Source of the DNA: Dehalococcoidia bacterium
GTDB taxonomy: Bacteria; Chloroflexota; Dehalococcoidia; UBA2979
Reading direction: 5' to 3'
NCBI GenBank assembly: GCA_963692775.1
Contig: OY839116.1
Coordinates: forward strand, 3,016,161 to 3,080,160
Length of the DNA: 64,000 bases
The notes beneath the pieces are model-generated. The model searched no databases. It was not told the origin of the DNA and saw only the letters and a list, made by a program, of their open reading frames with translations. This document shows positions 1 through 45,505 of the stretch, one piece after another (within the stretch, counting starts at the first letter, position 1; every line of letters starts with the position of its first letter). Made by a program: the position numbers and the translations under genes.

Positions 1-923
1 TGGCGGTTCCCGCTGGTGTAGAGCCTGAGGACCAGCGGCAGAACGCCCACGGAGTTGAAGATGCGTGGTGTCGTCAACGTCCGCATCGTGATGTGTCGGA
101 GGTCCGAGAACTCCTGGTTCAGCAAGAAGTCGGCACTCTCTCCATATTGCTCCCTCAGTCGCCACGACGCCCACAGATAGTGGCGCCCATCGATGCGCCC
201 GTCCGGGATGAACCGCTCGTCCGGTTGCCTGTGATCGAACGCGCCGCTGACAACTCGCGCCGTTTCCGCGAAGTAGAACATCCCCAGCCACGACCACACG
301 CCTGCGTGCTGGCCGACAAGGCGAGTGATCGGCTCCAGGCGGGGCGCAAGGTACTCGGCGGCGTCGCGGCGTGTGCGAAAGGGGCGGCGCTCGACCTCGA
401 CATCGCCGGGGAACGGCTGCGCGTAGCGCTCGTCGTAGAGGAGTTCTCGCGGCGGCTCGCGGTCGCCGTCCGGTTGGGCGCGCAGTCGCTCCAGGAAGGC
501 GCGGGCGAACTCGACGCCGTCGGGCGTGAGGCGGCGCAAGCGCTGGCGCTCGACGGAGTGGCGCCGCCCCGGCGTCTCGTCCGTGAGCCGCTCGAGTTCG
601 CGCGCGGTGGCGAGCGCCTCCTCCGTGAGCGTCGCGGGGGCCTCCACAGGCGGCGCTGCCGCGGGAACGAGCGGCTCCACGCCCATCAACTGCGAGGTCA
701 ACGCGTCGATCGCCTGGTTGATCCGCGCCAGCATCGTGCCCCGCCGCACCTTGTAGCCCGGTGGGCGGGATGCCTCCACGAACGCATCCCACGCTGGCGA
801 TCCGGGCTCCGCGTAGTCGCGCAGGTTGATGCGGCGGGGCGCGTCATCGCGCCCGAGCGCGTCGCGGATCTCGCGCAACCGGGCGAGCGCCTCCGCCCTC
901 GTGTCGTTCGCGCGCTCGTTCAT
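1..923 (-). CDS. hypothetical protein, third gene of the GHKL-ATPase operon. The 5' end is complete and the 3' end runs off the window edge (>=307 aa).
   Basis: Own translation of the minus strand from ATG at 921-923 (MNERANDTRAEALARLREIRDALGRDD...) is open to position 1 with high GC3 codon usage. Its start overlaps the upstream stop as ATGA (920-923). It is not in the ORF track because it is open-ended. The plus-strand ORF 93..953 is its antisense artefact. Confidence 0.55.
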   Translation of the reverse strand, partial: MNERANDTRAEALARLREIRDALGRDDAPRRINLRDYAEPGSPAWDAFVEASRPPGYKVRRGTMLARINQAIDALTSQLMGVEPLVPAAAPPVEAPATLTEEALATARELERLTDETPGRRHSVERQRLRRLTPDGVEFARAFLERLRAQPDGDREPPRELLYDERYAQPFPGDVEVERRPFRTRRDAAEYLAPRLEPITRLVGQHAGVWSWLGMFYFAETARVVSGAFDHRQPDERFIPDGRIDGRHYLWASWRLREQYGESADFLLNQEFSDLRHITMRTLTTPRIFNSVGVLPLVLRLYTSGNR

Positions 924-1696
924 GCCCGCCGCCCCTGCACGGCCTGGTTATAGGACTCGGCGGCATCGACGGCGTCGTCGGCGAACGCCTCCACGACCTT
1001 GTCGATCCAGCGGCTCGCGGCGGCGACCTCGCTCGCATCCGCGTCGCGGCTGAGGCGCGGCGGCTCCGCCTCCCGCAGCCGCGCCCGCGCCTGCTCGAAC
1101 CAGCCGCCCCACGGTCCCTCGCCGTCGTCGGGGTCCGCCCGTTCAACGAGCACGATGTGGCCCAGGATGGTGCGCAGCACGTCCGGCATGACGAGCGATC
1201 GGAACGCCGCGTCGCCGCGCACGATTTCGCTGATGCCGTCCACCTTCGGGTTGATCAGCAACTCGGGCAGGTCCATCCCGTCGCCGAAGTCCACGCGCCA
1301 CACCTCGTCGCCGAGATCCTCGCTCTCGCGCACCGCCAGCAGCGAGCGGCGCGGGAGCACCGGGCGGATGTTCGGCGCGTGCGCCAGCAGCAGGCCCGAT
1401 CCGTCGCCGGCTACGACGATCACGCGGAACTGCGCCGATTCGGGCACGTCCGTCAGCCGCCGCTCCTCGTCAGGCGGGGGCTCCGGCACGCCGGTCGTGC
1501 CGTAGTCCCAGCGCTGGACGGCGTTGCCGCGCCATGCCTCGACGCGGATGCGGGCGTCGGGCGGGAGGTCGTACGCCGACAGGTCGAGGTCGAGGTCGAA
1601 GACGGGCGCCTCGTCGCCGTCGGCCGGGCGCAGCGCGACCTGTGCATGGTCGCGCCGGATGCTCCTCCGTCCGGTGCGATTGAGATGCCGCCTCAC
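920..1696 (-). CDS. hypothetical protein (258 aa), middle gene of the GHKL-ATPase operon
   Basis: Listed ORF with coding-like composition. There are 4-nt overlaps with both neighbours (1693-1696 and 920-923). I recognise no motif. Confidence 0.6.
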   Translation of the reverse strand: MRRHLNRTGRRSIRRDHAQVALRPADGDEAPVFDLDLDLSAYDLPPDARIRVEAWRGNAVQRWDYGTTGVPEPPPDEERRLTDVPESAQFRVIVVAGDGSGLLLAHAPNIRPVLPRRSLLAVRESEDLGDEVWRVDFGDGMDLPELLINPKVDGISEIVRGDAAFRSLVMPDVLRTILGHIVLVERADPDDGEGPWGGWFEQARARLREAEPPRLSRDADASEVAAASRWIDKVVEAFADDAVDAAESYNQAVQGRRA

Positions 1697-3678
1697 GATG
1701 CCTCGTCCTCGCTTCCGCCGTCATCAGCGGCGACGATGGGCCGCACGTCGACGACGACGTCGCGGTCGTCGAGGCCGGTCACGTCGAGGCGGAAGTCGCT
1801 GCCTTCGACCCGGAAGCGCAGCTCATTCCCGGCCGGGGGCTCGACGCGGGCTGAGCGTTCGCGTATCTCCACCCCGCCATCGCCGATCACGAAGTCGGGC
1901 ACGCCCTGACGCGCTCCCCGCTCGAAGAGGTTGAAGGCGTTGCCACGGACGACGTCGTAGGCGAAGCGGAGCGTCCAGTCCGTACCGGCGAGGGTGTTCC
2001 CGCGCGGCGCTCGCAGCGAGAATCCTCCGGCGCTGCGGCTGACGTCGAACGGGCTGGGCGCCGTTCGCGGCGGGGGGTCGCTGACGCGTGATCGCCCAGG
2101 GCCGACGCGCGTGCTTGGCGTACGTCCCTTGATGGCGGTCGCGTCTGCGGGGAACAGGTCGGCGAGCGCGTCGAACTGCTGCTCGTCGGGCCGCTCGGCG
2201 AGGCGCTGGAGGAGCAGCACCGCGGCGCGGCGTACCTCCTGCACGCGAGCGTAACCGCCGACCCACCGATCCTTCAGGCGCTGCTCGTGCGGATCCCAGA
2301 CGACGTGCGCCGGGCCCTCCGCATCGCGCAGGAGGTGACCCAACTCGGACTCGCCGTCCACCAGCACGAGCGCGCGCGCCTTGTAGCGTTCGACGTGATC
2401 CATGCGCGGGATGCTGAGGTGGCCACGGATGAAGTAGTCGTGGCCCTTGCTGAGGTTCTCGGCCCGTTCGAAGTAGAGCCGGAAGCTGCCGGGCGTGCGC
2501 ACTGCCGCCCCGCGCCGCTGCACGCCGATCTCCAGATTGAACGCCAGCCGTTCACCGTTCTCGTAGCGCTCGCGCAGATCCTCTAGGTCCAGGCTCGCGA
2601 GCGCGTCACTAGTGCGCCTGGGGACCGGGAGGCGGATGTGCTCGCCGTCGCCGCGTCCGATTGCCCACTGGGCGAGCCTGATGGCGCCTGCCAGCGACTC
2701 GGGCGTCTCTTCGTCGTGCGCGTCCTGGCTGTCCAGCTGGGGGATGTCGACCACCTCGCGGTTGATGGTCTCAGCGTTGATGTAGCGCCGTCGCTCGCCC
2801 GGCGCGCTGATCTCGATGCTGAGGTCACCGCGCACGATCGGCAGGAAGTACTGCGCGATGACGGCGCGGGCGATCGCCGCCGAAGTGATGTCCTCGTGCG
2901 GATAGGGCACGACGACGGAGAGGCCGGGCTCGTCGAGCCGCCCGAGTCCGAAGTCCTCTATCGCCGTCAGCACGAACTCGGTGTCGTCGTCGGAGTCGAG
3001 GGGAAGCGGCAGCCACTGGTCGTCGCCGTGGTCGTCCGCGACCGCGAACTGACCGTAGGGCGGGTGCTTCACGCCGTCCACGGTGTGCGTCCTGAGCACG
3101 GCCATCCCCATCACCAGCACGTTGTCCTCGCCAGCGCGGCGCGTCGCGCCGACGTAGGCGTTGATCATCGAAGCGTCGGGGAAGACCCACTTGCCGAGGC
3201 CCCACGAGCCGCCGGCGTCCTCGTTCTTGGGGGAGATGCCGATGCTGCGGAAGAAGCCCCAGAAATGGTTCCCGGCTTCCTTCTCCTCGTTGGCCCGGAT
3301 GTCGCCCGCCAGACCGGTGGTCCCGAAGTCCTCGATGGCAAGCCATGTCATCGGCCGTCGCAGGCAGGCCCGCGCGGCGGCGATTGCCTCCCGCTCTGCC
3401 GCGTCAGCGTCCCGGTCCGCCTGGATGTGCGGCTCGAGGCCCTCGAGGTAGCGCGTGGCGGCGCTGGCCGGGAGCGCGCCGTCGTCGCCGCTGAACGTGA
3501 AGCGGACCAGCACGGTCTCGCCGTCCCGCCGGGCGTCGAGCGAGTTCTGCAGCGCCTCGCGCACGAGCCGCTCGGGCAGGTCGGCGGCGGTCGTGAAGAA
3601 CTCGCCCTGCACCGGGTTCTGATTGATTTCCCAAGGCTGCATGCGCCCGAACCGCCAGTGCGGTCGTCTCGATGCCAT
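1693..3678 (-). CDS. MORC/HATPase_c_3-like GHKL (Bergerat-fold) ATPase, 661 aa
   Basis: N-box LVREALQNSLDA, G1 box AIEDFGTTGLAGD and G2 box GGSWGLGKWVF all lie in the N-terminal 180 aa. The C-terminal ~450 aa is unassigned. The RBS is GGGGG 5 nt upstream of the ATG. Confidence 0.7.
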   Translation of the reverse strand: MASRRPHWRFGRMQPWEINQNPVQGEFFTTAADLPERLVREALQNSLDARRDGETVLVRFTFSGDDGALPASAATRYLEGLEPHIQADRDADAAEREAIAAARACLRRPMTWLAIEDFGTTGLAGDIRANEEKEAGNHFWGFFRSIGISPKNEDAGGSWGLGKWVFPDASMINAYVGATRRAGEDNVLVMGMAVLRTHTVDGVKHPPYGQFAVADDHGDDQWLPLPLDSDDDTEFVLTAIEDFGLGRLDEPGLSVVVPYPHEDITSAAIARAVIAQYFLPIVRGDLSIEISAPGERRRYINAETINREVVDIPQLDSQDAHDEETPESLAGAIRLAQWAIGRGDGEHIRLPVPRRTSDALASLDLEDLRERYENGERLAFNLEIGVQRRGAAVRTPGSFRLYFERAENLSKGHDYFIRGHLSIPRMDHVERYKARALVLVDGESELGHLLRDAEGPAHVVWDPHEQRLKDRWVGGYARVQEVRRAAVLLLQRLAERPDEQQFDALADLFPADATAIKGRTPSTRVGPGRSRVSDPPPRTAPSPFDVSRSAGGFSLRAPRGNTLAGTDWTLRFAYDVVRGNAFNLFERGARQGVPDFVIGDGGVEIRERSARVEPPAGNELRFRVEGSDFRLDVTGLDDRDVVVDVRPIVAADDGGSEDEAS

Positions 3679-3730: not shown

Positions 3731-5128
3731 CTACGGGTGCGTCATCTCCTCCGGGCGCACCCACTCGTCGAACTCGGCGTCCGTGACGTAGCCGAGGGAC
3801 AGCGCGGCCTCGCGCAGCGTCGAGCCCGCGACGTGGGCGTGGTGGGCCACCTCGGCGGCGCGGTCGTAGCCGATGTGCGGGCTGAGCGCCGTCACCAGCA
3901 TCAGCGACGACTCCATCAACTCGCGGATGCGCGCGTGGTTCGGCTCGATGCCGGCGACGCAGTTGTCGGTGAAGGAGACGGCGGCGTCGCCCAGCAGGCG
4001 GATCGATTGCAGCGTGTTGTAGACGATCACCGGCTTGAAGACGTTGAGCTCGAAGTGGCCCGTCGCGCCGCCGACGTTGACCGCCACGTCGTTGCCGATC
4101 ACCTGCGCGCAGACCATCGTCAGCGCCTCGGACTGCGTCGGGTTCACCTTGCCCGGCATGATCGAGGAGCCCGGCTCGTTGGCGGGCAGCATCAGCTCGG
4201 CGACGCCGGCGCGCGGCCCGGAGCCGAGCAGCCGCACGTCGTTCGCGATCTTCATCAGCGAGGCGGCGACGGTCTTGAGCTGGCCCGACAGCTCGACCTG
4301 CGCGTCGTGCGCGGCGAGCGACTCGAACTTGTTGGGCGCGGTCACGAAGGGCAGCCCCGTCATGCGCGCGATCTCCGCGGCGACGCGCTCGCCGTACTCG
4401 GGGTGCGCGTTGAGGCCGGTGCCGACCGCAGTGCCGCCGAGGGCGAGCTCGCAGACGCGCGGCAGCGCGCTCTCGACGCGCAGGATCGCGTTCTCGACCT
4501 GCTTGACGTAACCGGAGAACTCCTGGCCGAGCGTCAGCGGCGTCGCGTCCATCAAGTGCGTGCGGCCGATCTTCACGATGTCCTCGAAGGCGGCCTGCTT
4601 CGCGGCGAGCGCCTCGTGCAGATGCTTGAGGCCGGGCGCGAGGCGGTGCGTGACCTCCTCGGCGGTCGCGATCGACATCGCGCCGGGGAAGACGTCGTTC
4701 GAGGACTGCGACATGTTGACGTGGTCGTTGGGGTGCACCGGGTCCTTGGAGCCGCGCACGCCGCCGAGCAGCTCGATCGCGCGGTTGGAGATCACCTCGT
4801 TGGCGTTCATGTTGGACTGGGTGCCGGAGCCGGTCTGCCAGACGACGAGCGGGAAGTGGTCGTCGAGGTCGCCGTCGATCACCTCCTGCGCGGCGGAGCG
4901 GATCGCCTCGGCGAGCCCGCCGTCGAGCCTGCCGAGGCTCTCGTTCGCGCTCGCCGAGGCGTGCTTGACGATGCCGAGAGCGCGGATGATCGAGCGCGGC
5001 ATGCGCTCGTCCCCGATCTTGAAGTTCTCCAGCGAGCGCTGCGTCTGCGCCCCCCAGTACCTGTCATCGGCCACCTCGATGGCGCCCATGCTGTCGGTCT
5101 CGATGCGGGTGGGTGTGGTGGTTGTCAT
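3731..5128 (-). CDS. fumC: class II fumarate hydratase
   Basis: [17 protein letters not shown] signature. Start refined to [19 protein letters not shown] (GAGGAG RBS); the listed ORF extends further 5'. Confidence 0.9.
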
Positions 5129-5237
5129 CGTGTGCTCCTCGGTGCCGGGAGCAGGGTAGCGGGAGTGGGGGTTGTGGGCAGCAGCGCGCGTCGTTCGGCA
5201 GGCGGACATGAACGTGCGTTCGGGAGCCTCGGCGGGT

Positions 5238-6137
5238 ATGGTGAGGGCCATGACGCCGCGCGAAGCGTTTCTGCGAGAACTGGCCGAGCGGGCGGGCGAG
5301 CCGAGGAGGCTTGGCCGCAGCCGCTCGCTGTTCGAGATCGGGGATGGGCAGGCGTTCGTCTACATCCGCTACTCGCGCGTCCACGGGCCGGGCAACACGT
5401 TCTTCGGCCTCCGGGACCAGGACGTGCGCGAGCTCGAGGGGCGGACGGCGTTCATCGCGCTGCTGTGGGACGGTCAGGCGGAGCCGCTGCTGCTCCCGTT
5501 CGCTGAGTTCGCCCCGCTGTTCGAGGAGTCCGAACCCGCCGCAGACGGCCAGTTCAAGGCGCAGGTCTACCTGCGCGAGGACCAGCCCGCCGAGCTCTAC
5601 GTCACGCGCGCCGGACGCCACAACGTCGAAACCTACTTCGGTTGGGAGCTGCTGCTGAGCGCCCTCGCCGACGTGCGCGAGGAGACGCCGAAGCTCGAGC
5701 ACTCGCAGGTGCAGACGCTGCTCGGGGCGATCGGCGATATGCAAGGACTGGACGTCTGGATACCGCCGAACGACCGATCGAAGATGGACTGGACGCTGGC
5801 TCCCAGGTTCCAGTTCCGCACGGCGCTCCCGCCGGGCCTCGACGCCGTGATGCGCGAGATCGACGTGGTCTGGCTGGCGCGCGGCGGCAGCACGCCGGTC
5901 AGCCTTTACGAGGTCGAGCACACGACGGCGATCTACTCGGGGCTGCTGCGCTTCAACGACATGCACCTGACCGTCAACCGGCCGCCGAAGTTCACGATCG
6001 TCGCGCCGGAGGATCGGCGGGGCAAGTTCGTGCGGGAGGTGCGCCGCCCGACGTTCCGGGCGAGCGGCCTCAACGACATCTGCCGCTTCATGACCTACGG
6101 CGAGGTGTACCGCTCGGCGCCGGCGCTCGGCGCGTAG
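5238..6137 (+). CDS. hypothetical protein (~300 aa); start uncertain (TTG 5172, ATG 5238 or ATG 5250)
   Basis: Long ORF with good codon usage, divergent from fumC. The segment [10 protein letters not shown]...SLYEVEHT is weakly reminiscent of a PD-(D/E)xK-type core, but this is not secure. Confidence 0.5.
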
Positions 6138-6153
6138 CGAGAGGGAGGACGGC

Positions 6154-6393
6154 ATGACCAGCGAGGCGAACGGGACGAACGGCGCGGGCGAGCGCCACTA
6201 CCTGCTCTACGTCTGGGCCGGCGTCGAGCCGGAGCTGCACGGCCCCTACCCCACGGACGACGAGCGCCTCGAGGCCGCCCGCGCCCTCGCCGCCGACGGC
6301 GGCTCCGACGAGCACGGCATCTTCTGGCTCGACGCCCCGGGGGCTGTGGAGGTGGGGACGTTCGGGGCGGCGGAGGTTGGAGGCCAAGGGTGA
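6154..6393 (+). CDS. small acidic hypothetical protein (79 aa)
   Basis: Strong RBS GAGGGAGGA 5 nt upstream of the ATG, 16 nt after the upstream stop. D/E-rich. Confidence 0.5.
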   Translation: MTSEANGTNGAGERHYLLYVWAGVEPELHGPYPTDDERLEAARALAADGGSDEHGIFWLDAPGAVEVGTFGAAEVGGQG

Positions 6394-6395
6394 CA

Positions 6396-6932
6396 TTACC
6401 GCCTGCCGTCGACTTCTTTGTCGCCCGGACCGCCCGAGTCCTTCTGTGACGCGTACAGAGCCCTGATTAGACCGCGCCGAGCGACGAGGCGGACTAGAGC
6501 CAGCATGTTGAACAGGGTCCACACAAACAGGAACGTGGAGAGCCCGATGCCGATGCGCATTGTTAGCTCGTCGTTCTGCGGTGTGAGAATCAGGAACATT
6601 AGACTGGCGGAGGAGGTCAGTACGGCGACTACAGCAGTGAAGGAGAATGGGAAGAAGTCTTCGATCACACCCCTACCGATGCTGTTGGACACCCTGAGCA
6701 GCTCGTCGTTCATGAGCGTAACGATGAGCGATAGGCCCGCCAGTACCACACCGAGCAAGCCAACCGACACCGTAGCCTCTGTGCGGAGTATCAAAGTGTA
6801 GCGTTCCTGAAGATTGCTATCTGTGACCAAGACTGCTGGTGCTATGCCGAGCACGAGGGACAACACGAAGTACCAGTGGAGGAAGATGTGCCTCCAATGG
6901 GCGAGCAGCAGTGACCAGAACCCGGGAACCAT
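6396..6932 (-). CDS. 4-TM membrane protein (178 aa) in a low-GC islet
   Basis: Four hydrophobic helices can be read from the translation. Local GC is ~55% against ~70% for the genome. It sits 2 nt downstream of the partner gene. Confidence 0.6.
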   Translation of the reverse strand: MVPGFWSLLLAHWRHIFLHWYFVLSLVLGIAPAVLVTDSNLQERYTLILRTEATVSVGLLGVVLAGLSLIVTLMNDELLRVSNSIGRGVIEDFFPFSFTAVVAVLTSSASLMFLILTPQNDELTMRIGIGLSTFLFVWTLFNMLALVRLVARRGLIRALYASQKDSGGPGDKEVDGRR

Positions 6933-6934
6933 GT

Positions 6935-7771
6935 TCAGAGCAGCGATCTGAGCGATCTCAGCAGGCGGCGGAGGTACGTCTCCTCCGTCTCGTTCTCGAC
7001 TGTCTCGATGTCGGTGCTGGCGACATTCCGGCCTGAGTCGAAGAATCTCCGGTTCCGATCTACTACACCGGTGGCCCGCACGACGCCGAAAGTCTCTCGT
7101 GTGTAGTCAACGAAGTCCTGTAGGCCAGTGCCAGTAATCTGGAGACCGGGACCGTCCTGTGGGGGCTTGGCCTCGAGGTTGACCTGCGCTGCGTTCGAAT
7201 CTTCCAGGAGCCGCCGGACGATGGCGTCTCCATGTTCGTCCCAGTCCGGGTTTGGTTGTCGGACCGAAACGAAGAATCGGGTCACCCGGTCTGTGCGGGT
7301 GAGCCAATTGCTGAACTCTTCCATGTCAGCGACGAATTCGGCGTCGAATGCGACTTCAGGATTCGGTGCTTGGCGCAGGATCATTCTCAGGGCGGTAGCG
7401 AAAGCGGTTCGCCTGACATCTCTCCGCTCCTCGAAGATCAGGTAGCGGGTATCTAGGTCGAGCACGAGGTACGAGAACTGGCCATGTCCCCTGCTGCCGG
7501 GAATGGTGATAAAGTCCTCGGCCTCTTCGTCGTACCGCACAGCGGGCTCATCCGTGCGGATGCTCTCGAAGCCGAGCTTCCCGAAGAGGACGGGCTCGTC
7601 GCCGAGTCGCTGAGGGCGTGCGAGACGCCAATTGCGCCCGTAGCGCGCCACGACCTGCTGCGGATCAAGCGCCTCCATAATGTCTGGCTCGAACGGCCGG
7701 TCACGCTGGGTAAGCAGGGGCAGGTCAGCGCTTCGGTTGATCCGCATCAGCCAGAGACGGCGTCGGGCCAT
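6935..7771 (-). CDS. hypothetical cytoplasmic protein (278 aa), upstream partner of the 4-TM protein
   Basis: RBS GGGAAGGGAG before the ATG. Low GC. No recognisable motif. Confidence 0.6.
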   Translation of the reverse strand: MARRRLWLMRINRSADLPLLTQRDRPFEPDIMEALDPQQVVARYGRNWRLARPQRLGDEPVLFGKLGFESIRTDEPAVRYDEEAEDFITIPGSRGHGQFSYLVLDLDTRYLIFEERRDVRRTAFATALRMILRQAPNPEVAFDAEFVADMEEFSNWLTRTDRVTRFFVSVRQPNPDWDEHGDAIVRRLLEDSNAAQVNLEAKPPQDGPGLQITGTGLQDFVDYTRETFGVVRATGVVDRNRRFFDSGRNVASTDIETVENETEETYLRRLLRSLRSLL

Positions 7772-7821
7772 GCTCGCGCTCCCTTCCCGCCGAATCTAGC
7801 AGGTCCGCGCACCGCGTAGCC

Positions 7822-8754
7822 CTACCCCGCGGGCGTAGCCGCCACCAGCTCCAGCACTGCCTCGCCGGCGGCCTGGATGGCGGCGACCTCGGAGGCGGCG
7901 AGGGGGGGCTCGTAGACCTCGAGGATGCCGCCGGCGCCGAGCAGGACCGGGGCGCCGACGTAGGCGTGCTCGATGCCCCACTGGCTGTCCAGCAGCGCGC
8001 AGCAGGGGAGGATGCGGCGCTCGTCGCGCAGGATCGCGTCGACCATCTCGATCGTCGCGGCGGCGGGGGCGGTGAAGGCGGAGCCCGTCTTGAGCAGGCC
8101 GACGATCTCGGCGCCGCCCTTCATCGTGCGGTCCACGACGGCCTCGATGCGGTCGGGGGCCAGCAGCGCGGTCAGCGGGACGCCGCCGACCGTGGCCGTC
8201 GAGACGACCGGGACCATCGTCGCCTCGGTGTGGCCGCCGAGGACCCAGGCCGAGACGTCGCGCACGGAGACGCCGAGCTCCATCGCGATGAAGGTGCGGT
8301 AGCGCGTGCTGTCCAGCATCCCGCCCTGGCCGACGACGCGCGCGGCGGGCAGCCCGCTCGCCTCGAGGGCGACGTGGCACATCGCGTCCATCGGGTTGGC
8401 GAAGATGACCAGCACCGCGTCCGGCGAGTGCTCGACCGCCTGGCCGACGACGCTGCGCACGATGCCGGCGTTGGTGCCGAGCAGGTCCTCGCGCGTCATG
8501 CCCGGCCTGCGCGCCACGCCCGAGGTGACGACGACGACGTCGGAGCCGGCGGTGTCCGCCCAGTCGTTCGTGCCGCCGACGGAGCTGCTGAAGCCGACCC
8601 AGGGGGCGCCCTCGGCGATGTCGAGCGCCTTGCCCTGCGGCAGGCCCTCGACGATGTCGATCAGCATGACGTCGGCGTAGCCGCGCGAGGCGAGGATCTG
8701 CGCCATGGTGGCGCCGGTGTTGCCCGCGCCGACAATCGTCACCTTGCTCCGCAC
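7822..8754 (-). CDS. mdh: malate dehydrogenase (LDH-like, NAD-dependent)
   Basis: N-terminal KVTIVGAGNTG Rossmann motif. Full-length similarity to MDH/LDH. Confidence 0.9.
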   Translation of the reverse strand: MRSKVTIVGAGNTGATMAQILASRGYADVMLIDIVEGLPQGKALDIAEGAPWVGFSSSVGGTNDWADTAGSDVVVVTSGVARRPGMTREDLLGTNAGIVRSVVGQAVEHSPDAVLVIFANPMDAMCHVALEASGLPAARVVGQGGMLDSTRYRTFIAMELGVSVRDVSAWVLGGHTEATMVPVVSTATVGGVPLTALLAPDRIEAVVDRTMKGGAEIVGLLKTGSAFTAPAAATIEMVDAILRDERRILPCCALLDSQWGIEHAYVGAPVLLGAGGILEVYEPPLAASEVAAIQAAGEAVLELVAATPAG

Positions 8755-42731: not shown

Positions 42732-43220
42732 ATGTCGGACCGAAATGGCGTGGGTGAGGACGGATTCCGCGCGGCCTTGGTTGGCCGCCGCGAGGCTCTT
42801 GCAGCGGAGCGCGAGGCGGTGAGCGCGCAGATCAGCAAGCGGGAGCGGAGGCGCTCCGAGATTGAGGAGCAGATCGGACACATCGACGCCCTGCTCGGCA
42901 ATGACGCGGCCGCCGACTCCGCTGCCACACCCCCGACTCCCGAGGCCCGCGACTCCGCTTCCGGCAACGAGACGGCCGATCTGGTGGTTGACCTGCTGCG
43001 CGAAGTCGGGGAGCCCCTCCACTACCGCGAGATCGAGCGGGAACTGCGCGAGCGTGGCGTCCTGAGGGTTGAGGGCAAGAACCCCGCCAACACGCTGCTG
43101 TCCCGATTCTTCAACGACCCACGGCTGTACAGGCCCCGCCGCGGCACCTACGCGCTGCGCAACGGGAGCGCCGCGCGATCGGTCGGTACGAGGCGTAGGC
43201 GCGCGCGCCGGGGGAAGTAG
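42732..43220 (+). CDS. coiled-coil protein with a C-terminal HARE-HTH/Mrr_N-like winged-helix domain (162 aa)
   Basis: N-terminal heptad-like charged helix. C-terminal EPLHYREIERELRERGVL...NPANTLLSRFFNDPRLYRPRRGTYALR pattern. RBS GAGGGAG. Confidence 0.6.
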   Translation: MSDRNGVGEDGFRAALVGRREALAAEREAVSAQISKRERRRSEIEEQIGHIDALLGNDAAADSAATPPTPEARDSASGNETADLVVDLLREVGEPLHYREIERELRERGVLRVEGKNPANTLLSRFFNDPRLYRPRRGTYALRNGSAARSVGTRRRRARRGK

Positions 43221-43222
43221 TC

Positions 43223-45505
43223 ATGGTACAGGCTCAGTGGCCGCTTCCCGGCACGGATCGCGCTACCCGTGAACTCCTTGAGGCGCTCTTGGAGGCAGAG
43301 ACAGAGGCTGACGTGCATGCATGTCTCGATCAGGCGGGCATGCTTGATGACTCGTACTGGCAGCCGTATGGAGGCGTGCAGAACAACAGCGGCACCTTCT
43401 TCAACCAACAGGCGAGCCCGCGAGGCGCGCTTGTCGAGAAGATTGTCAATAGCATCGACGCTGTCCTGATGGCCAAGGCTTTCGAGCACGCTGATTTGCT
43501 GAGTGGTTCCCCGCCAGATTCGATGTTTGGGGCTGCGGACCGCTATTTCGACATCCGCGACGGCCGCCTCTCCGAGGTTCCGGCGGGAGAACGGAGGGCG
43601 ATCGCTCGGCAAGCGGTCCAAGTCGTGCTCTCCGGCAACCGGAGCCCGGGTCGCCCGACCATCACGATCGCCGATCAGGGTGAGGGCCAGAACCCCGAGT
43701 CGTTCCCGGGCACCTTCCTGTCGCTGTCAGCCACGAACAAGATGAAGATCCCGTTCGTCCAAGGGAAGTTCAACATGGGTTCTGCGGGAGCAGTGCCGTT
43801 CTGTGGAGTGCAGCAGAACTACCAGTTGATCCTCTCTCGCAGGCACCCTGCGATACCGGACTCGAACGGACGTTGGGGATTCACGGTCGTGCGCCGTCGT
43901 CCCCCTAAGCCGGATGAGCGAGCTTCTCAGTTCGAGTATCTCGCTCCAGATGGTGCGGTGCTCAGTATCGGCGCAGACACCGTGCCGCTATGGAAGAACG
44001 GTGACGGAAGCACTTCGGAAGTAGGACACGGCAGCCTCGTACGACTGTACGAGTACGATATCCAAGAACGGACTGCCGCGAACTTTGACTTTTCCCGGAT
44101 GCTGAATCGCCGACTGTACCGGCTACCACTACCGATCCAGGTCATCGAGACCCGAGGCTTTAGGCGGGCCAACAACGAGGAAGTCGTCCCCGGCTTGGCT
44201 ACGCGACTCGATGAGGATACGTCCAATGATGTGGAACACGGCTTTCCCGTGTCCGACCGCATAAGGGTTGAGGGTGTCGGGTGGGTGCGCGTCTCACTGA
44301 TCCCGTTCCGTGAAGACGTGAACATCAGCCACTGGGTGACCGCATCTGAGAGCGTGATATTCACGGTGAATGGTCAAGCGCACGCATTCGAGGCACGGGA
44401 CTTCTTGCGGCGCGACACGCGAAGCGGGGCAAACTACCGTTATCTGGCGCAGAGCTTGCTAGTTGAGGTTGACTGCTCCGAACTAGGCAGCATCGAGCAG
44501 TTGTTCATGGGCTCTCGCGACCGAATGCGGGACGGCGAACAACGCACTGCGCTTCTGCGTGCACTTGCGGGGCACCTTCGTCGGCATAAGGGGCTCCGCG
44601 AGCTGAATCACAAGCGACGCGAGGCAGCGATACAGCGCTCAGTCAAGAGCAACGTCAAGACCAGTGAGATGTTTGAGAAAATGATCGCTGCGTCGCCCAC
44701 GATAGCGGCTTTGCTCAGCGGCGGAGCTATCCCAGCGCCCGTCGCCCCAACGCCGCCACCGGTTGTCGTTCCATTTGAGGGGCAGCGGTTCCCGACTTTC
44801 CTCAAGTGGGCCAAGGGCGGTCCTGTACGCGAGAAGCGCTGTCACCTTGGGTCGTACTGCCTGCTCGAGCTTGAGACGGATGCTTCCAACGACTTCCTCT
44901 CGCGATCGATCGAGCCCGGGATTCTTGATGTCGCCCCATCAGGCTGGTCAGTGAGCGAGAAGCTATGGGACGGGAGCCTTCAGATTCGGTTGGAACCACC
45001 GGTTGGCATCCAGTCGGGGCAGAAAATCCCGCTTAGGGTCACGCTCATGTCTGATGCTCCACCGGAAGTTCCAGATGTGCTCGAAGTCGAAGGTCGACTT
45101 GTGGTCGATCCACCTGTCGAGAGTCCGCCGCCGCCGCCGCCTCCTCCTCCCCGGCCGAAGGTTGCTCCACCAGAGATTCTGGAGGTGAGGAGGGATGCTT
45201 GGTCAGCTCACGACTTTGACGAGCATTCGATTGCTCGCGTGGACAAGGCGGATGGTAAGACCATCGTGTTCGTCAACATGGATAGTCAGGGGTTGGTCGC
45301 CTACGTACGCACCGAGCGGCAGCGAAGAAGCGAGCTTGAGGAGATGTACAAGCTTGCGGTGGCTCCCACCGCCATCTCACTGGAGCGGGCTGTTGCGGAC
45401 GAGGAAATCACGAGCGCGCAGGCGGACAAGGCTCTAGCCGCCGTAGGCGCTGTATTGCTCCCCGCCGTCGACTTCGCGGCGAAGGTCGCGCAAGAGGCGG
45501 AGTAG
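43223..45505 (+). CDS. MORC/HATPase_c_3-like GHKL ATPase, 760 aa, with long unassigned C-terminal region and a poly-Pro tract
   Basis: N-box ALVEKIVNSIDAV, G1 ITIADQGEGQN, G2 QGKFNMGSAGAV. Starts 2 nt after the upstream stop. GC is about 58%. Confidence 0.7.
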   Translation: MVQAQWPLPGTDRATRELLEALLEAETEADVHACLDQAGMLDDSYWQPYGGVQNNSGTFFNQQASPRGALVEKIVNSIDAVLMAKAFEHADLLSGSPPDSMFGAADRYFDIRDGRLSEVPAGERRAIARQAVQVVLSGNRSPGRPTITIADQGEGQNPESFPGTFLSLSATNKMKIPFVQGKFNMGSAGAVPFCGVQQNYQLILSRRHPAIPDSNGRWGFTVVRRRPPKPDERASQFEYLAPDGAVLSIGADTVPLWKNGDGSTSEVGHGSLVRLYEYDIQERTAANFDFSRMLNRRLYRLPLPIQVIETRGFRRANNEEVVPGLATRLDEDTSNDVEHGFPVSDRIRVEGVGWVRVSLIPFREDVNISHWVTASESVIFTVNGQAHAFEARDFLRRDTRSGANYRYLAQSLLVEVDCSELGSIEQLFMGSRDRMRDGEQRTALLRALAGHLRRHKGLRELNHKRREAAIQRSVKSNVKTSEMFEKMIAASPTIAALLSGGAIPAPVAPTPPPVVVPFEGQRFPTFLKWAKGGPVREKRCHLGSYCLLELETDASNDFLSRSIEPGILDVAPSGWSVSEKLWDGSLQIRLEPPVGIQSGQKIPLRVTLMSDAPPEVPDVLEVEGRLVVDPPVESPPPPPPPPPRPKVAPPEILEVRRDAWSAHDFDEHSIARVDKADGKTIVFVNMDSQGLVAYVRTERQRRSELEEMYKLAVAPTAISLERAVADEEITSAQADKALAAVGAVLLPAVDFAAKVAQEAE

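What the first reader, a model, noticed from the sequence alone, without database searches (positions are those of the whole stretch)
6396..7771. Low-GC islet encoding a cytosolic 278-aa protein plus a 4-TM membrane protein
This segment has about 55% GC against about 70% around it. The two minus-strand genes are separated by 2 nt. The upstream product has no recognisable domain; the downstream product is a compact 4-helix membrane protein.

A soluble sensor paired with a small multi-TM effector is the recurrent architecture of abortive-infection modules (CBASS/Pycsar/Thoeris-like membrane effectors, Rst-type two-gene systems). The islet starts 50 bp downstream of mdh and converges on the 5238-6393 pair.
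Basis: partly seen in the sequence, partly recalled or inferred. Interest (0 to 1): 0.55.

Follow-up and report, generated by a model that had tools for sequence, protein, structure and literature searches.

The report
Chromosomal RexAB-like phage-exclusion gene pair
The low-GC islet is a horizontally acquired two-gene module, a soluble protein with the fold of phage lambda RexA plus a four-helix membrane partner, so it is most likely a Rex/CarolAnn-type abortive-infection system: a new member of a known kind that standard defence finders miss.

Summary
Two minus-strand genes, 6935-7771 (278 aa) and 6396-6932 (178 aa, four hydrophobic helices), lie 2 nt apart and 50 bp after mdh. Their GC is 60% (GC3 about 74%) against 71% (GC3 89-99%) around them.

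All nine family loci I examined have a homologous 168-211-aa membrane gene (3-4 hydrophobic helices by the same scan) directly downstream. One of these loci is in a phage.

In three close relatives the pair sits in the same mdh-fumC slot. There it is 50-68% identical, while mdh and fumC are 88-94% identical. A fourth relative carries it elsewhere, as a sharply bounded low-GC islet.

The best explanation is a Rex-like sensor plus membrane-effector exclusion module of the "DUF4747/CarolAnn" type. It is chromosomal and not in a prophage. Function is inferred, not shown. It is a new member of a known kind, of modest interest.

The parts
6935..7771 (-). rexA-like gene: 278-aa soluble DUF4747-family protein with a RexA/RdgC-type two-domain fold (putative sensor/activator)
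6396..6932 (-). rexB-like gene: 178-aa four-helix membrane protein (putative effector). A basic C-terminal tail predicts N-in/C-in topology. A conserved G-x-x-E-D-x-F-P-F motif lies in the central loop (residues 86-97).
   Evidence: ORF. Four Kyte-Doolittle segments. Four long helices in a low-confidence model. Colinear alignment with the partners from 8 other loci. Loop charge count: C-terminal tail has 8 K+R.
6930..6937 (-). gene junction TGA-AC-ATG (2-nt spacer), suggesting translational coupling of the two genes
   Evidence: Sequence. Relatives have overlapping stop/start codons at the same junction: ATGA in L001 and L002, GTGA in L008.
7772..7821 (-). 50-bp spacer between the mdh stop and the rexA-like start, with a GGGAG ribosome-binding site at 7779-7783. 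No consensus promoter was detected.
   Evidence: Sequence. Alignment with three syntenic relatives shows a conserved mdh 3' end, a divergent spacer and a conserved GGAG-ATG. Promoter/terminator scan found nothing.

Best explanation
The islet is a horizontally acquired, chromosomal (non-prophage) two-gene phage-exclusion or abortive-infection module. It is of the RexAB / 'DUF4747-CarolAnn-Sbash' type.

Proposed mechanism:
1. The 278-aa cytoplasmic protein has the RexA/RdgC-like two-domain fold. It probably acts as a dimer and as the sensor. By analogy with RexA, Sbash gp30, CarolAnn gp44 and P. putida RexA, it probably binds DNA or a phage DNA-protein intermediate.
2. On phage infection it activates the co-translated four-helix inner-membrane partner, probably through that partner's conserved central cytoplasmic loop.
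3. The membrane protein then compromises the membrane (depolarisation or permeabilisation). Growth of the infected cell stops and phage replication is aborted.

Shown here: gene anatomy, foreign composition, fold, family membership, strict pairing with a homologous membrane partner, mobility, and rapid divergence.

Inferred: DNA binding, dimerisation, the A-B interaction, membrane damage, and phage defence itself.
For: 1. Fold.
- The model is good (pLDDT 83.7, pTM 0.83).
- Foldseek against 350,542 chains also puts 8twq_B first (probability 0.99), followed by RdgC.

2. Architecture matches lambda rexA-rexB.
- 278 aa against 279 aa for RexA.
- The soluble gene comes first, and a four-helix membrane gene follows immediately.

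3. Family.
- Precomputed DUF4747 hits on all homologues.
- The local PF15931.10 model hits 10 of 114 family members.
- DUF4747 is the motif the literature uses to link RexA, Sbash gp30, CarolAnn gp44 and Butters gp30. Each of these has a four-TM partner and demonstrated defence (PMC6426596, PMC6426606, PMC7542560).
- 'DUF4747/CarolAnn' is already listed as an immune operon type downstream of capK/capS (PMC13373217).

4. Pairing.
- 9 of 9 loci examined, spanning the family and including members only about 20-25% identical to the window protein, have a 168-211-aa membrane gene directly downstream, with 3-4 helices by the same scan.
- These partners align colinearly.

5. Mobility and arms-race signature.
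- GC3 of about 0.74 against 0.89-0.99 in neighbours.
- The pair is lower in GC than its surroundings in 8 of 9 loci.
- L008 carries it in a different context as a sharp islet, 51-58% GC against 75-79%.
- L015 is in a phage, with a tape-measure gene and an HTH_17 gene.
- Four phage proteins in BFVD match the model at E 1e-12 to 7e-15.
- In the shared mdh-fumC slot the pair is 50-68% identical while fumC is 91-94% and mdh 88% identical.

6. Neighbourhood.
- The slot also holds a restriction-endonuclease-like gene (PADLOC REase_II 9e-9; NmeDI_C in L007).
- A PDC-M33A-like gene lies beyond fumC.
Against: - No sequence-level link to any experimentally characterised Rex protein.
  - The RexA and RexB HMMs of Pfam and PADLOC do not hit, although they hit lambda strongly.
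  - tblastn against 50,697 phage records finds nothing.
  - hhalign of the family profile against the lambda RexA family and against CarolAnn/Sbash/Sejanus gives probabilities below 1%.
  - However, the positive control (lambda RexA family against CarolAnn/Sbash family) fails equally, so this test is uninformative here.
- The membrane partner has no detectable similarity to RexB or CarolAnn gp43 beyond size and topology. Its model is poor (pLDDT 56).
- There is no repressor or prophage context as in lambda, and no integrase, tRNA or flanking repeats.
- No promoter was recognised.
- No experiment exists on any close relative.
Confidence: 0.7

Rival explanations
1. A non-defence, lineage-specific pair: an RdgC/RexA-fold DNA-binding protein tethered to or regulated by a membrane protein. 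It would serve host physiology, for example recombination or replication control, or some function linked to the adjacent TCA-cycle genes.
For: The pair occupies the same mdh-fumC slot in four related genomes: the window, L001, L002 and L007. The fold is shared with RdgC, a housekeeping recombination modulator. No defence HMM hits.
Against: - Codon usage is foreign.
- The pair is 50-68% identical where the flanking genes are 88-94% identical.
- The same pair lies in an unrelated context in L008 and in a phage in L015.
- RdgC has no membrane partner (my own knowledge).
Confidence: 0.12
2. A selfish addiction or toxin-antitoxin-like cassette. The membrane protein would be a toxin held in check by the soluble protein, and the pair would be maintained by post-segregational killing rather than by phage defence.
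For: A compact, translationally coupled two-gene unit. It is mobile and compositionally foreign. Small membrane toxins are common in type I/II-like modules (my own knowledge). In P. putida, RexB is growth-suppressing (PMC12894663).
Against: In the characterised Rex-type systems the soluble protein activates the membrane protein rather than neutralising it (PMC12894663; PMC6426596). No plasmid or integrative element surrounds the pair. Many TA modules are also defence systems, so this rival overlaps the main explanation.
Confidence: 0.1
3. An inactive leftover: the remnant of a decayed prophage immunity region or of an old transfer, no longer functional.
For: No phage genes, repressor or recognisable promoter nearby. 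In L002 the membrane gene is split by a frameshift.
Against: Both ORFs are intact in the window, L001, L007, L008 and L006. Motifs are conserved across 114 family members. Coupling at the gene junction is conserved. L002 is a 4x-coverage contig, so the frameshift may be an assembly error.
Confidence: 0.08

Closest known systems
Bacteriophage lambda RexA/RexB exclusion system (PDB 8TWQ; Pfam PF15969/PF15968)
   Same: - Gene order is soluble then membrane.
- Sizes are similar: 278 against 279 aa for the soluble protein, and both partners have four TM helices.
- The two-domain RexA/RdgC-like fold is the best PDB match by two methods.
- Predicted N-in/C-in topology with a central cytoplasmic loop.
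   Different: - No sequence similarity; the RexA/RexB HMMs do not hit.
- The partner is longer (178 against 144 aa).
- The protein is acidic (pI 5.2 against 8.6).
- It is not next to a cI-type repressor and not in a prophage.
Actinobacteriophage Rex-like pairs: Gordonia phage CarolAnn gp44/gp43, Mycobacteriophage Sbash gp30/gp31, Butters gp30/gp31 (the 'DUF4747/CarolAnn' system)
   Same: - High-GC, probably actinobacterial setting (relatives are Solirubrobacteraceae and Conexibacter).
- DUF4747 link.
- A soluble acidic protein followed by a four-TM protein. CarolAnn gp43 is also exactly 178 aa.
- Overlapping or closely spaced genes.
- Defence has been shown experimentally for these phage pairs (PMC6426606, PMC6426596, PMC7542560).
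   Different: - The phage soluble proteins are about 90 aa longer (356-372 aa).
- There is no detectable sequence or profile similarity to the window family.
- They are prophage-encoded and lysogenically expressed, whereas this pair sits between chromosomal mdh and fumC.
Pseudomonas putida prophage P1 RexABpp (PP_5643/PP_5644)
   Different: - It is prophage-borne and downstream of a CI-like repressor.
- It had an HHpred link to RexA (98%), which I could not reproduce for this family with the tools available.
RdgC (recombination-associated DNA-binding protein) and kinetochore Iml3/Chl4/CENP-N/L
   Different: Scores are lower than for RexA. They have no membrane partner and no mobility. The Pfam scan of the window protein returned no family, so no RdgC-family match.

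Membership tests
Lambda RexAB (Pfam RexA PF15969 / RexB PF15968; PADLOC RexA/RexB) | Soluble component matches the RexA sequence model | tested here: not met
   No RexA hit in Pfam or PADLOC at E<=1. The same models hit lambda RexA at 1e-97 and 9e-110.
Lambda RexAB (Pfam RexA PF15969 / RexB PF15968; PADLOC RexA/RexB) | Membrane component matches the RexB sequence model | tested here: not met
   No RexB hit. hhalign of the partner alignment against RexB gives probability 0.2%.
Lambda RexAB (Pfam RexA PF15969 / RexB PF15968; PADLOC RexA/RexB) | RexA two-domain fold: split globular domain plus alpha/beta dimerisation domain, RdgC-like | tested here: met
Lambda RexAB (Pfam RexA PF15969 / RexB PF15968; PADLOC RexA/RexB) | Four-TM partner encoded immediately downstream in the same operon | tested here: met
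   2-nt spacer and four hydrophobic helices.
Lambda RexAB (Pfam RexA PF15969 / RexB PF15968; PADLOC RexA/RexB) | Located in a prophage immunity region next to a cI-type repressor | tested here: not met
   The neighbours are mdh, icd, fumC and a restriction-endonuclease-like gene. There is no repressor, integrase or phage gene.
Lambda RexAB (Pfam RexA PF15969 / RexB PF15968; PADLOC RexA/RexB) | Phage exclusion with membrane depolarisation on activation | not testable with these tools
   Needs plaque assays and membrane-potential or dye-uptake assays.
DUF4747 / CarolAnn-Sbash-type two-gene defence system | Soluble component belongs to Pfam DUF4747 (PF15931) | tested here: inconclusive
   Precomputed PF15931.11 hits, unmarked (E<=1e-5), on the homologues. 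The local PF15931.10 model does not hit the window protein. It hits only 10 of 114 family members, best E 4e-7. The cause is probably a difference between model versions.
DUF4747 / CarolAnn-Sbash-type two-gene defence system | Sequence or profile similarity to CarolAnn gp44 / Sbash gp30 | tested here: not met
   tblastn against phages finds nothing. hhalign gives probability below 1%. The control comparing lambda RexA with CarolAnn/Sbash is equally negative, so the test has little power.
DUF4747 / CarolAnn-Sbash-type two-gene defence system | Four-TM partner of about 165-180 aa adjacent to the soluble gene, conserved as a pair | tested here: met
   9 of 9 loci have a 168-211-aa multi-TM gene directly downstream, and these partners are homologous to each other. 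CarolAnn gp43 is 178 aa and Sbash gp31 is 165 aa, each with four TM helices.
DUF4747 / CarolAnn-Sbash-type two-gene defence system | Confers defence against heterotypic phages | not testable with these tools
   Experimental only.
   PADLOC and Pfam show no such domain. The only line is SAVED_TM at E 0.77, which is insignificant.
RdgC family | RdgC sequence family and a stand-alone gene | tested here: not met

The most novel reading that the evidence does not exclude
This would be a distinct, chromosomally resident branch of Rex-like systems. It is stably parked in a variable mdh-fumC slot across a clade of high-GC bacteria.

Its GC content is persistently 6-21 points below that of the host in 8 of 9 loci examined (the exception is higher). 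That holds even between alleles only about 50% identical. The low GC would then be functionally maintained rather than a transient trace of transfer. For example, it could allow xenogeneic silencing by an Lsr2-like protein, which would keep a toxic pair off until infection.

The acidic sensor might also recognise something other than DNA.
Probability: 0.1. Interest if true: 0.6.

Novelty: new member of a known kind. Interest (0 to 1): 0.3.

Why it matters
Rex is the oldest known phage-exclusion system, yet its mechanism is still unresolved. Only a handful of Rex-like pairs have been tested, and all of them are prophage-borne.

This locus shows three things:
- A sizeable family of DUF4747-4TM pairs (628 clusters at 50% identity) shares the RexA fold.
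- Such pairs also occur as bare two-gene islets in chromosomal hotspots of high-GC bacteria.
- The PADLOC HMM library does not hit them; it also misses the validated CarolAnn pair.

The result is useful for improving defence-system annotation. It also offers a compact, divergent Rex-like pair for mechanistic comparison. It does not change any concept.

Tried and rejected
- Local HMM libraries (Pfam, NCBIfam, PHROGs, PADLOC) on both proteins gave nothing significant. The JetC, DnaJ, SAVED_TM and MAG0130 lines are noise at E>=0.002 with tiny scores.
- phmmer and a family profile against PDB sequences gave nothing meaningful.
- tblastn of both proteins against 50,697 phage genomes found no relative.
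- hhalign of the family profiles (A1, A2, A3) against lambda RexA (single sequence and a 25-sequence family) and against CarolAnn/Sbash/Sejanus gave no signal. The positive control was also negative, so I rejected this as a discriminating test.
- hhalign or BLAST of the membrane partner against RexB and CarolAnn gp43 gave no signal.
- The search for related loci with the broad alignments failed because no stretch was conserved enough. With the narrow alignment it returned one genome locus (L006) and no viral contig.
- The source genome could not be identified.
- I looked for mobility signatures. There are no convincing flanking repeats: the 16-nt repeat at 6244-6259 and 7820-7835 is 88% identical and probably chance. 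No consensus promoter or terminator was found.
- I considered acidic pI as evidence against DNA binding and rejected it. The DNA-binding proteins CarolAnn gp44 and Sbash gp30 are also acidic, at 5.6 and 6.1 (PMC11077077).

Full report
**1. Observation**

The ORF list and the sequence confirm two minus-strand genes.
- 6935-7771 encodes 278 aa and 6396-6932 encodes 178 aa.
- They are separated by TGA-AC-ATG, a 2-nt spacer.
- The 278-aa ATG lies 50 bp after the mdh stop (7822) and is preceded by GGGAG.
- The stop of the 178-aa gene lies 2 nt from the end of a convergent plus-strand pair (about 5172-6137 and 6154-6393).

Composition:
- The islet is 60.0% GC, against a window mean of 71.1% (SD 3.4% for windows of equal size).
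- Only one other region of the window is as low.
- Third-position GC is about 0.74, against 0.89-0.99 in seven neighbouring genes. The anomaly is therefore in codon usage and is not explained by membrane-protein composition. The soluble gene shows it equally.

The 178-aa product has four hydrophobic segments: 18-36, 55-73, 98-116 and 129-147. Its lysine/arginine-rich C-terminal tail has 8 K+R, which predicts an N-in/C-in topology with a central cytoplasmic loop.

**2. What the soluble protein is**

Local scans of Pfam, NCBIfam, PHROGs and PADLOC are empty. A search of 5.8 billion proteins found only eight homologues at 34-68% identity. All carry a precomputed PF15931.11 (DUF4747) hit.

An exhaustive profile search found 628 cluster representatives at E<=1e-3. 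The older local model PF15931.10 hits 10 of 114 of them. The discrepancy is therefore most likely a model-version effect, and the window protein belongs to a divergent wing of DUF4747.

The literature uses DUF4747 as the weak HHpred link between lambda RexA, Sbash gp30, CarolAnn gp44 and Butters gp30.
- Each of these is the cytoplasmic half of a two-gene prophage defence system whose other half is a four-TM protein (PMC6426596, PMC6426606, PMC7542560).
- A 2026 paper lists 'DUF4747/CarolAnn prophage system' among known immune operons found downstream of capK/capS (PMC13373217).

**3. Structure**

An AlphaFold model from the nine-sequence alignment is confident (pLDDT 83.7, pTM 0.83).
- Foldseek against the PDB ranks lambda RexA 8twq_B first (probability 0.99, E 1e-3). 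RdgC follows.
- This is the same fold neighbourhood that the RexA structure paper reports for RexA itself: RdgC, IML3 and CHL4 (PMC11077077).
- The order of secondary-structure elements fits RexA's split globular domain plus dimerisation domain: a beta-rich N-terminal domain, a middle alpha/beta domain and a returning C-terminal helix.
- The low global TM-scores (0.35) fit a different inter-domain angle. RexA is known to open and close.
- In the viral structure set, four uncharacterised phage proteins of 277-314 aa match at E 1e-12 to 7e-15.

**4. No sequence-level link**

- tblastn against 50,697 phage genomes finds nothing.
- Profile-profile comparisons with the lambda RexA family and with CarolAnn/Sbash/Sejanus are negative.
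- The control comparison of the lambda RexA family with the CarolAnn/Sbash family is just as negative, although those two are accepted relatives. The test therefore lacks power here.
- PADLOC's RexA/RexB models hit lambda (9e-110 and 9e-61). They miss CarolAnn gp44/gp43 and this family alike.

**5. The pair is a conserved unit**

In the window and eight other loci, the DUF4747 gene is followed at once by a 168-211-aa gene. These loci include family members only about 20-25% identical to the window protein.
- The downstream gene overlaps the first gene or lies at most 36 nt away.
- It has three to four strong hydrophobic helices.
- The partners align colinearly. They share a motif G-x-x-[ED]-x-[FW]-P-[FY] in the central loop before helix 3.
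[quoted passage not shown] This loop is therefore a candidate interface.
- The size and topology of the partner resemble RexB (144 aa), Sbash gp31 (165 aa) and CarolAnn gp43 (178 aa).
- No sequence similarity to these is detectable. My model of the partner is low-confidence: pLDDT 56, with four long helices.

**6. Context and evolution**

Three metagenomic relatives (L001, L002, L007) carry the pair in the same place, directly after a conserved mdh 3' end.
- In L001 the pair runs straight into fumC.
- In L007 and the window, a convergent pair lies between it and fumC: a restriction-endonuclease-like gene plus a 78-79-aa gene.
- The content of the slot is therefore variable.
- Across these genomes fumC is 91-94% and mdh 88% identical. 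The soluble protein is 53-68% and the membrane protein 50-68% identical.

L008 carries a pair 50% and 47% identical in an unrelated context. There it forms a sharply bounded islet of 51-58% GC in DNA of 75-79% GC. L015 lies in a phage, with a tape-measure gene and an HTH_17 gene. L006 is from a Solirubrobacteraceae genome.

The pair is lower in GC than its surroundings in 8 of 9 loci.

No integrase, tRNA, convincing flanking repeat, consensus promoter or terminator accompanies the window islet. Together these points mean horizontal mobility of a bare two-gene unit plus rapid diversification. That is the usual signature of defence genes. It is not the signature of a housekeeping function tied to the TCA genes.

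**7. Mechanism (inferred)**

By analogy with lambda RexAB, Sbash, CarolAnn and P. putida RexAB, I propose the following.
- The 278-aa protein is a cytoplasmic sensor. It is probably dimeric and probably binds DNA or a phage replication or recombination intermediate.
- On infection it activates the co-translated membrane partner.
- The partner depolarises or permeabilises the membrane and aborts the infection.

The family's acidic pI (median 5.1; the window protein 5.2) does not argue against this. CarolAnn gp44 (5.6) and Sbash gp30 (6.1) bind DNA in vitro (PMC11077077).

None of these steps is shown for this family.

**8. Rivals**

- A host-physiology role for an RdgC-like protein. Synteny in four genomes supports it. 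Foreign codon usage, fast divergence and occurrences elsewhere and in a phage argue against it.
- A TA-like addiction cassette. This overlaps with the defence reading.
- A decayed remnant. The intact ORFs and conserved motifs argue against it.

**9. Comparison and novelty**

The locus works like RexAB and like the CarolAnn/Sbash pairs. It meets the fold, architecture and pairing criteria. It fails the sequence-model criteria for RexA/RexB and the prophage-immunity context. Its DUF4747 membership depends on the model version.

It is best filed as a new member of a known kind: a Rex-like DUF4747-4TM module that is chromosomal, not prophage-borne, and invisible to the PADLOC HMM library.

The analogues it named (CBASS, Pycsar, Thoeris, Rst) were not. 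Interest is modest (0.3).

Noticed in passing
window 5172-6137 (+) and 6154-6393 (+): A convergent pair sits in the same mdh-fumC slot. The first gene encodes a 321-aa protein (as listed) whose C-terminus hits PADLOC REase_II (9e-9). Its L007 homologue (76% identical) carries Pfam NmeDI_C. The second gene, 16 nt downstream, encodes a 79-aa acidic protein (pI 4.2; 61% identical in L007). No methyltransferase is adjacent. The pair is absent from L001. Its GC is host-like (69-75%), unlike the Rex-like pair.
   Followed up: partly
window 1693-3678 (-) and 920-1696 (-): Just beyond fumC lies a 661-aa protein that hits the PADLOC candidate PDC-M33A (2e-16, N-terminal 130 residues). To my eye its LVREALQNSLDA motif looks GHKL-ATPase-like, which I did not test. 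A 258-aa ORF with no hits follows, overlapping it by 4 nt. L002 has a different 619-aa gene in the same position (31% identical over 119 aa). fumC is therefore flanked on both sides by variable, defence-like genes.
   Followed up: partly
window about 42732-45505 (+): A second low-GC islet (58-62% GC) is the only other region of the window as low as the finding. It holds a 162-aa HARE-HTH / Rok-like winged-helix protein (42732-43220) and a 760-aa protein (43223-45505) with no Pfam or PADLOC hit.
   Followed up: partly
window 5128-5251: The mechanical fumC ORF (3731-5251, 506 aa) is probably too long. Relatives start at MTT(S/T)TPTR..., which corresponds to about position 5128. The TTG start of the 321-aa ORF at 5172 is likewise doubtful, because the L007 homologue is 257 aa. 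The apparent overlap of these divergent genes is probably an artefact of start-codon choice.
   Followed up: no
L002 1003-1540: The membrane partner in this syntenic relative is split into 75-aa and 105-aa pieces by a frameshift. The contig has about 4x coverage, so the cause may be an assembly error or a genuine pseudogene.
   Followed up: no
Pfam PF15931, versions .10 and .11: The local Pfam copy (PF15931.10) misses the window protein and most of its family. The precomputed annotations (PF15931.11) hit all homologues. Annotation of this family therefore depends on the Pfam release.
   Followed up: yes
L008 3026-4398; L001, L007, L011 pairs: The Rex-like pairs keep a GC content 6-21 points below that of their hosts in 8 of 9 loci. 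This holds even between alleles only about 50% identical. Simple recent transfer followed by amelioration would not obviously predict it.
   Followed up: partly
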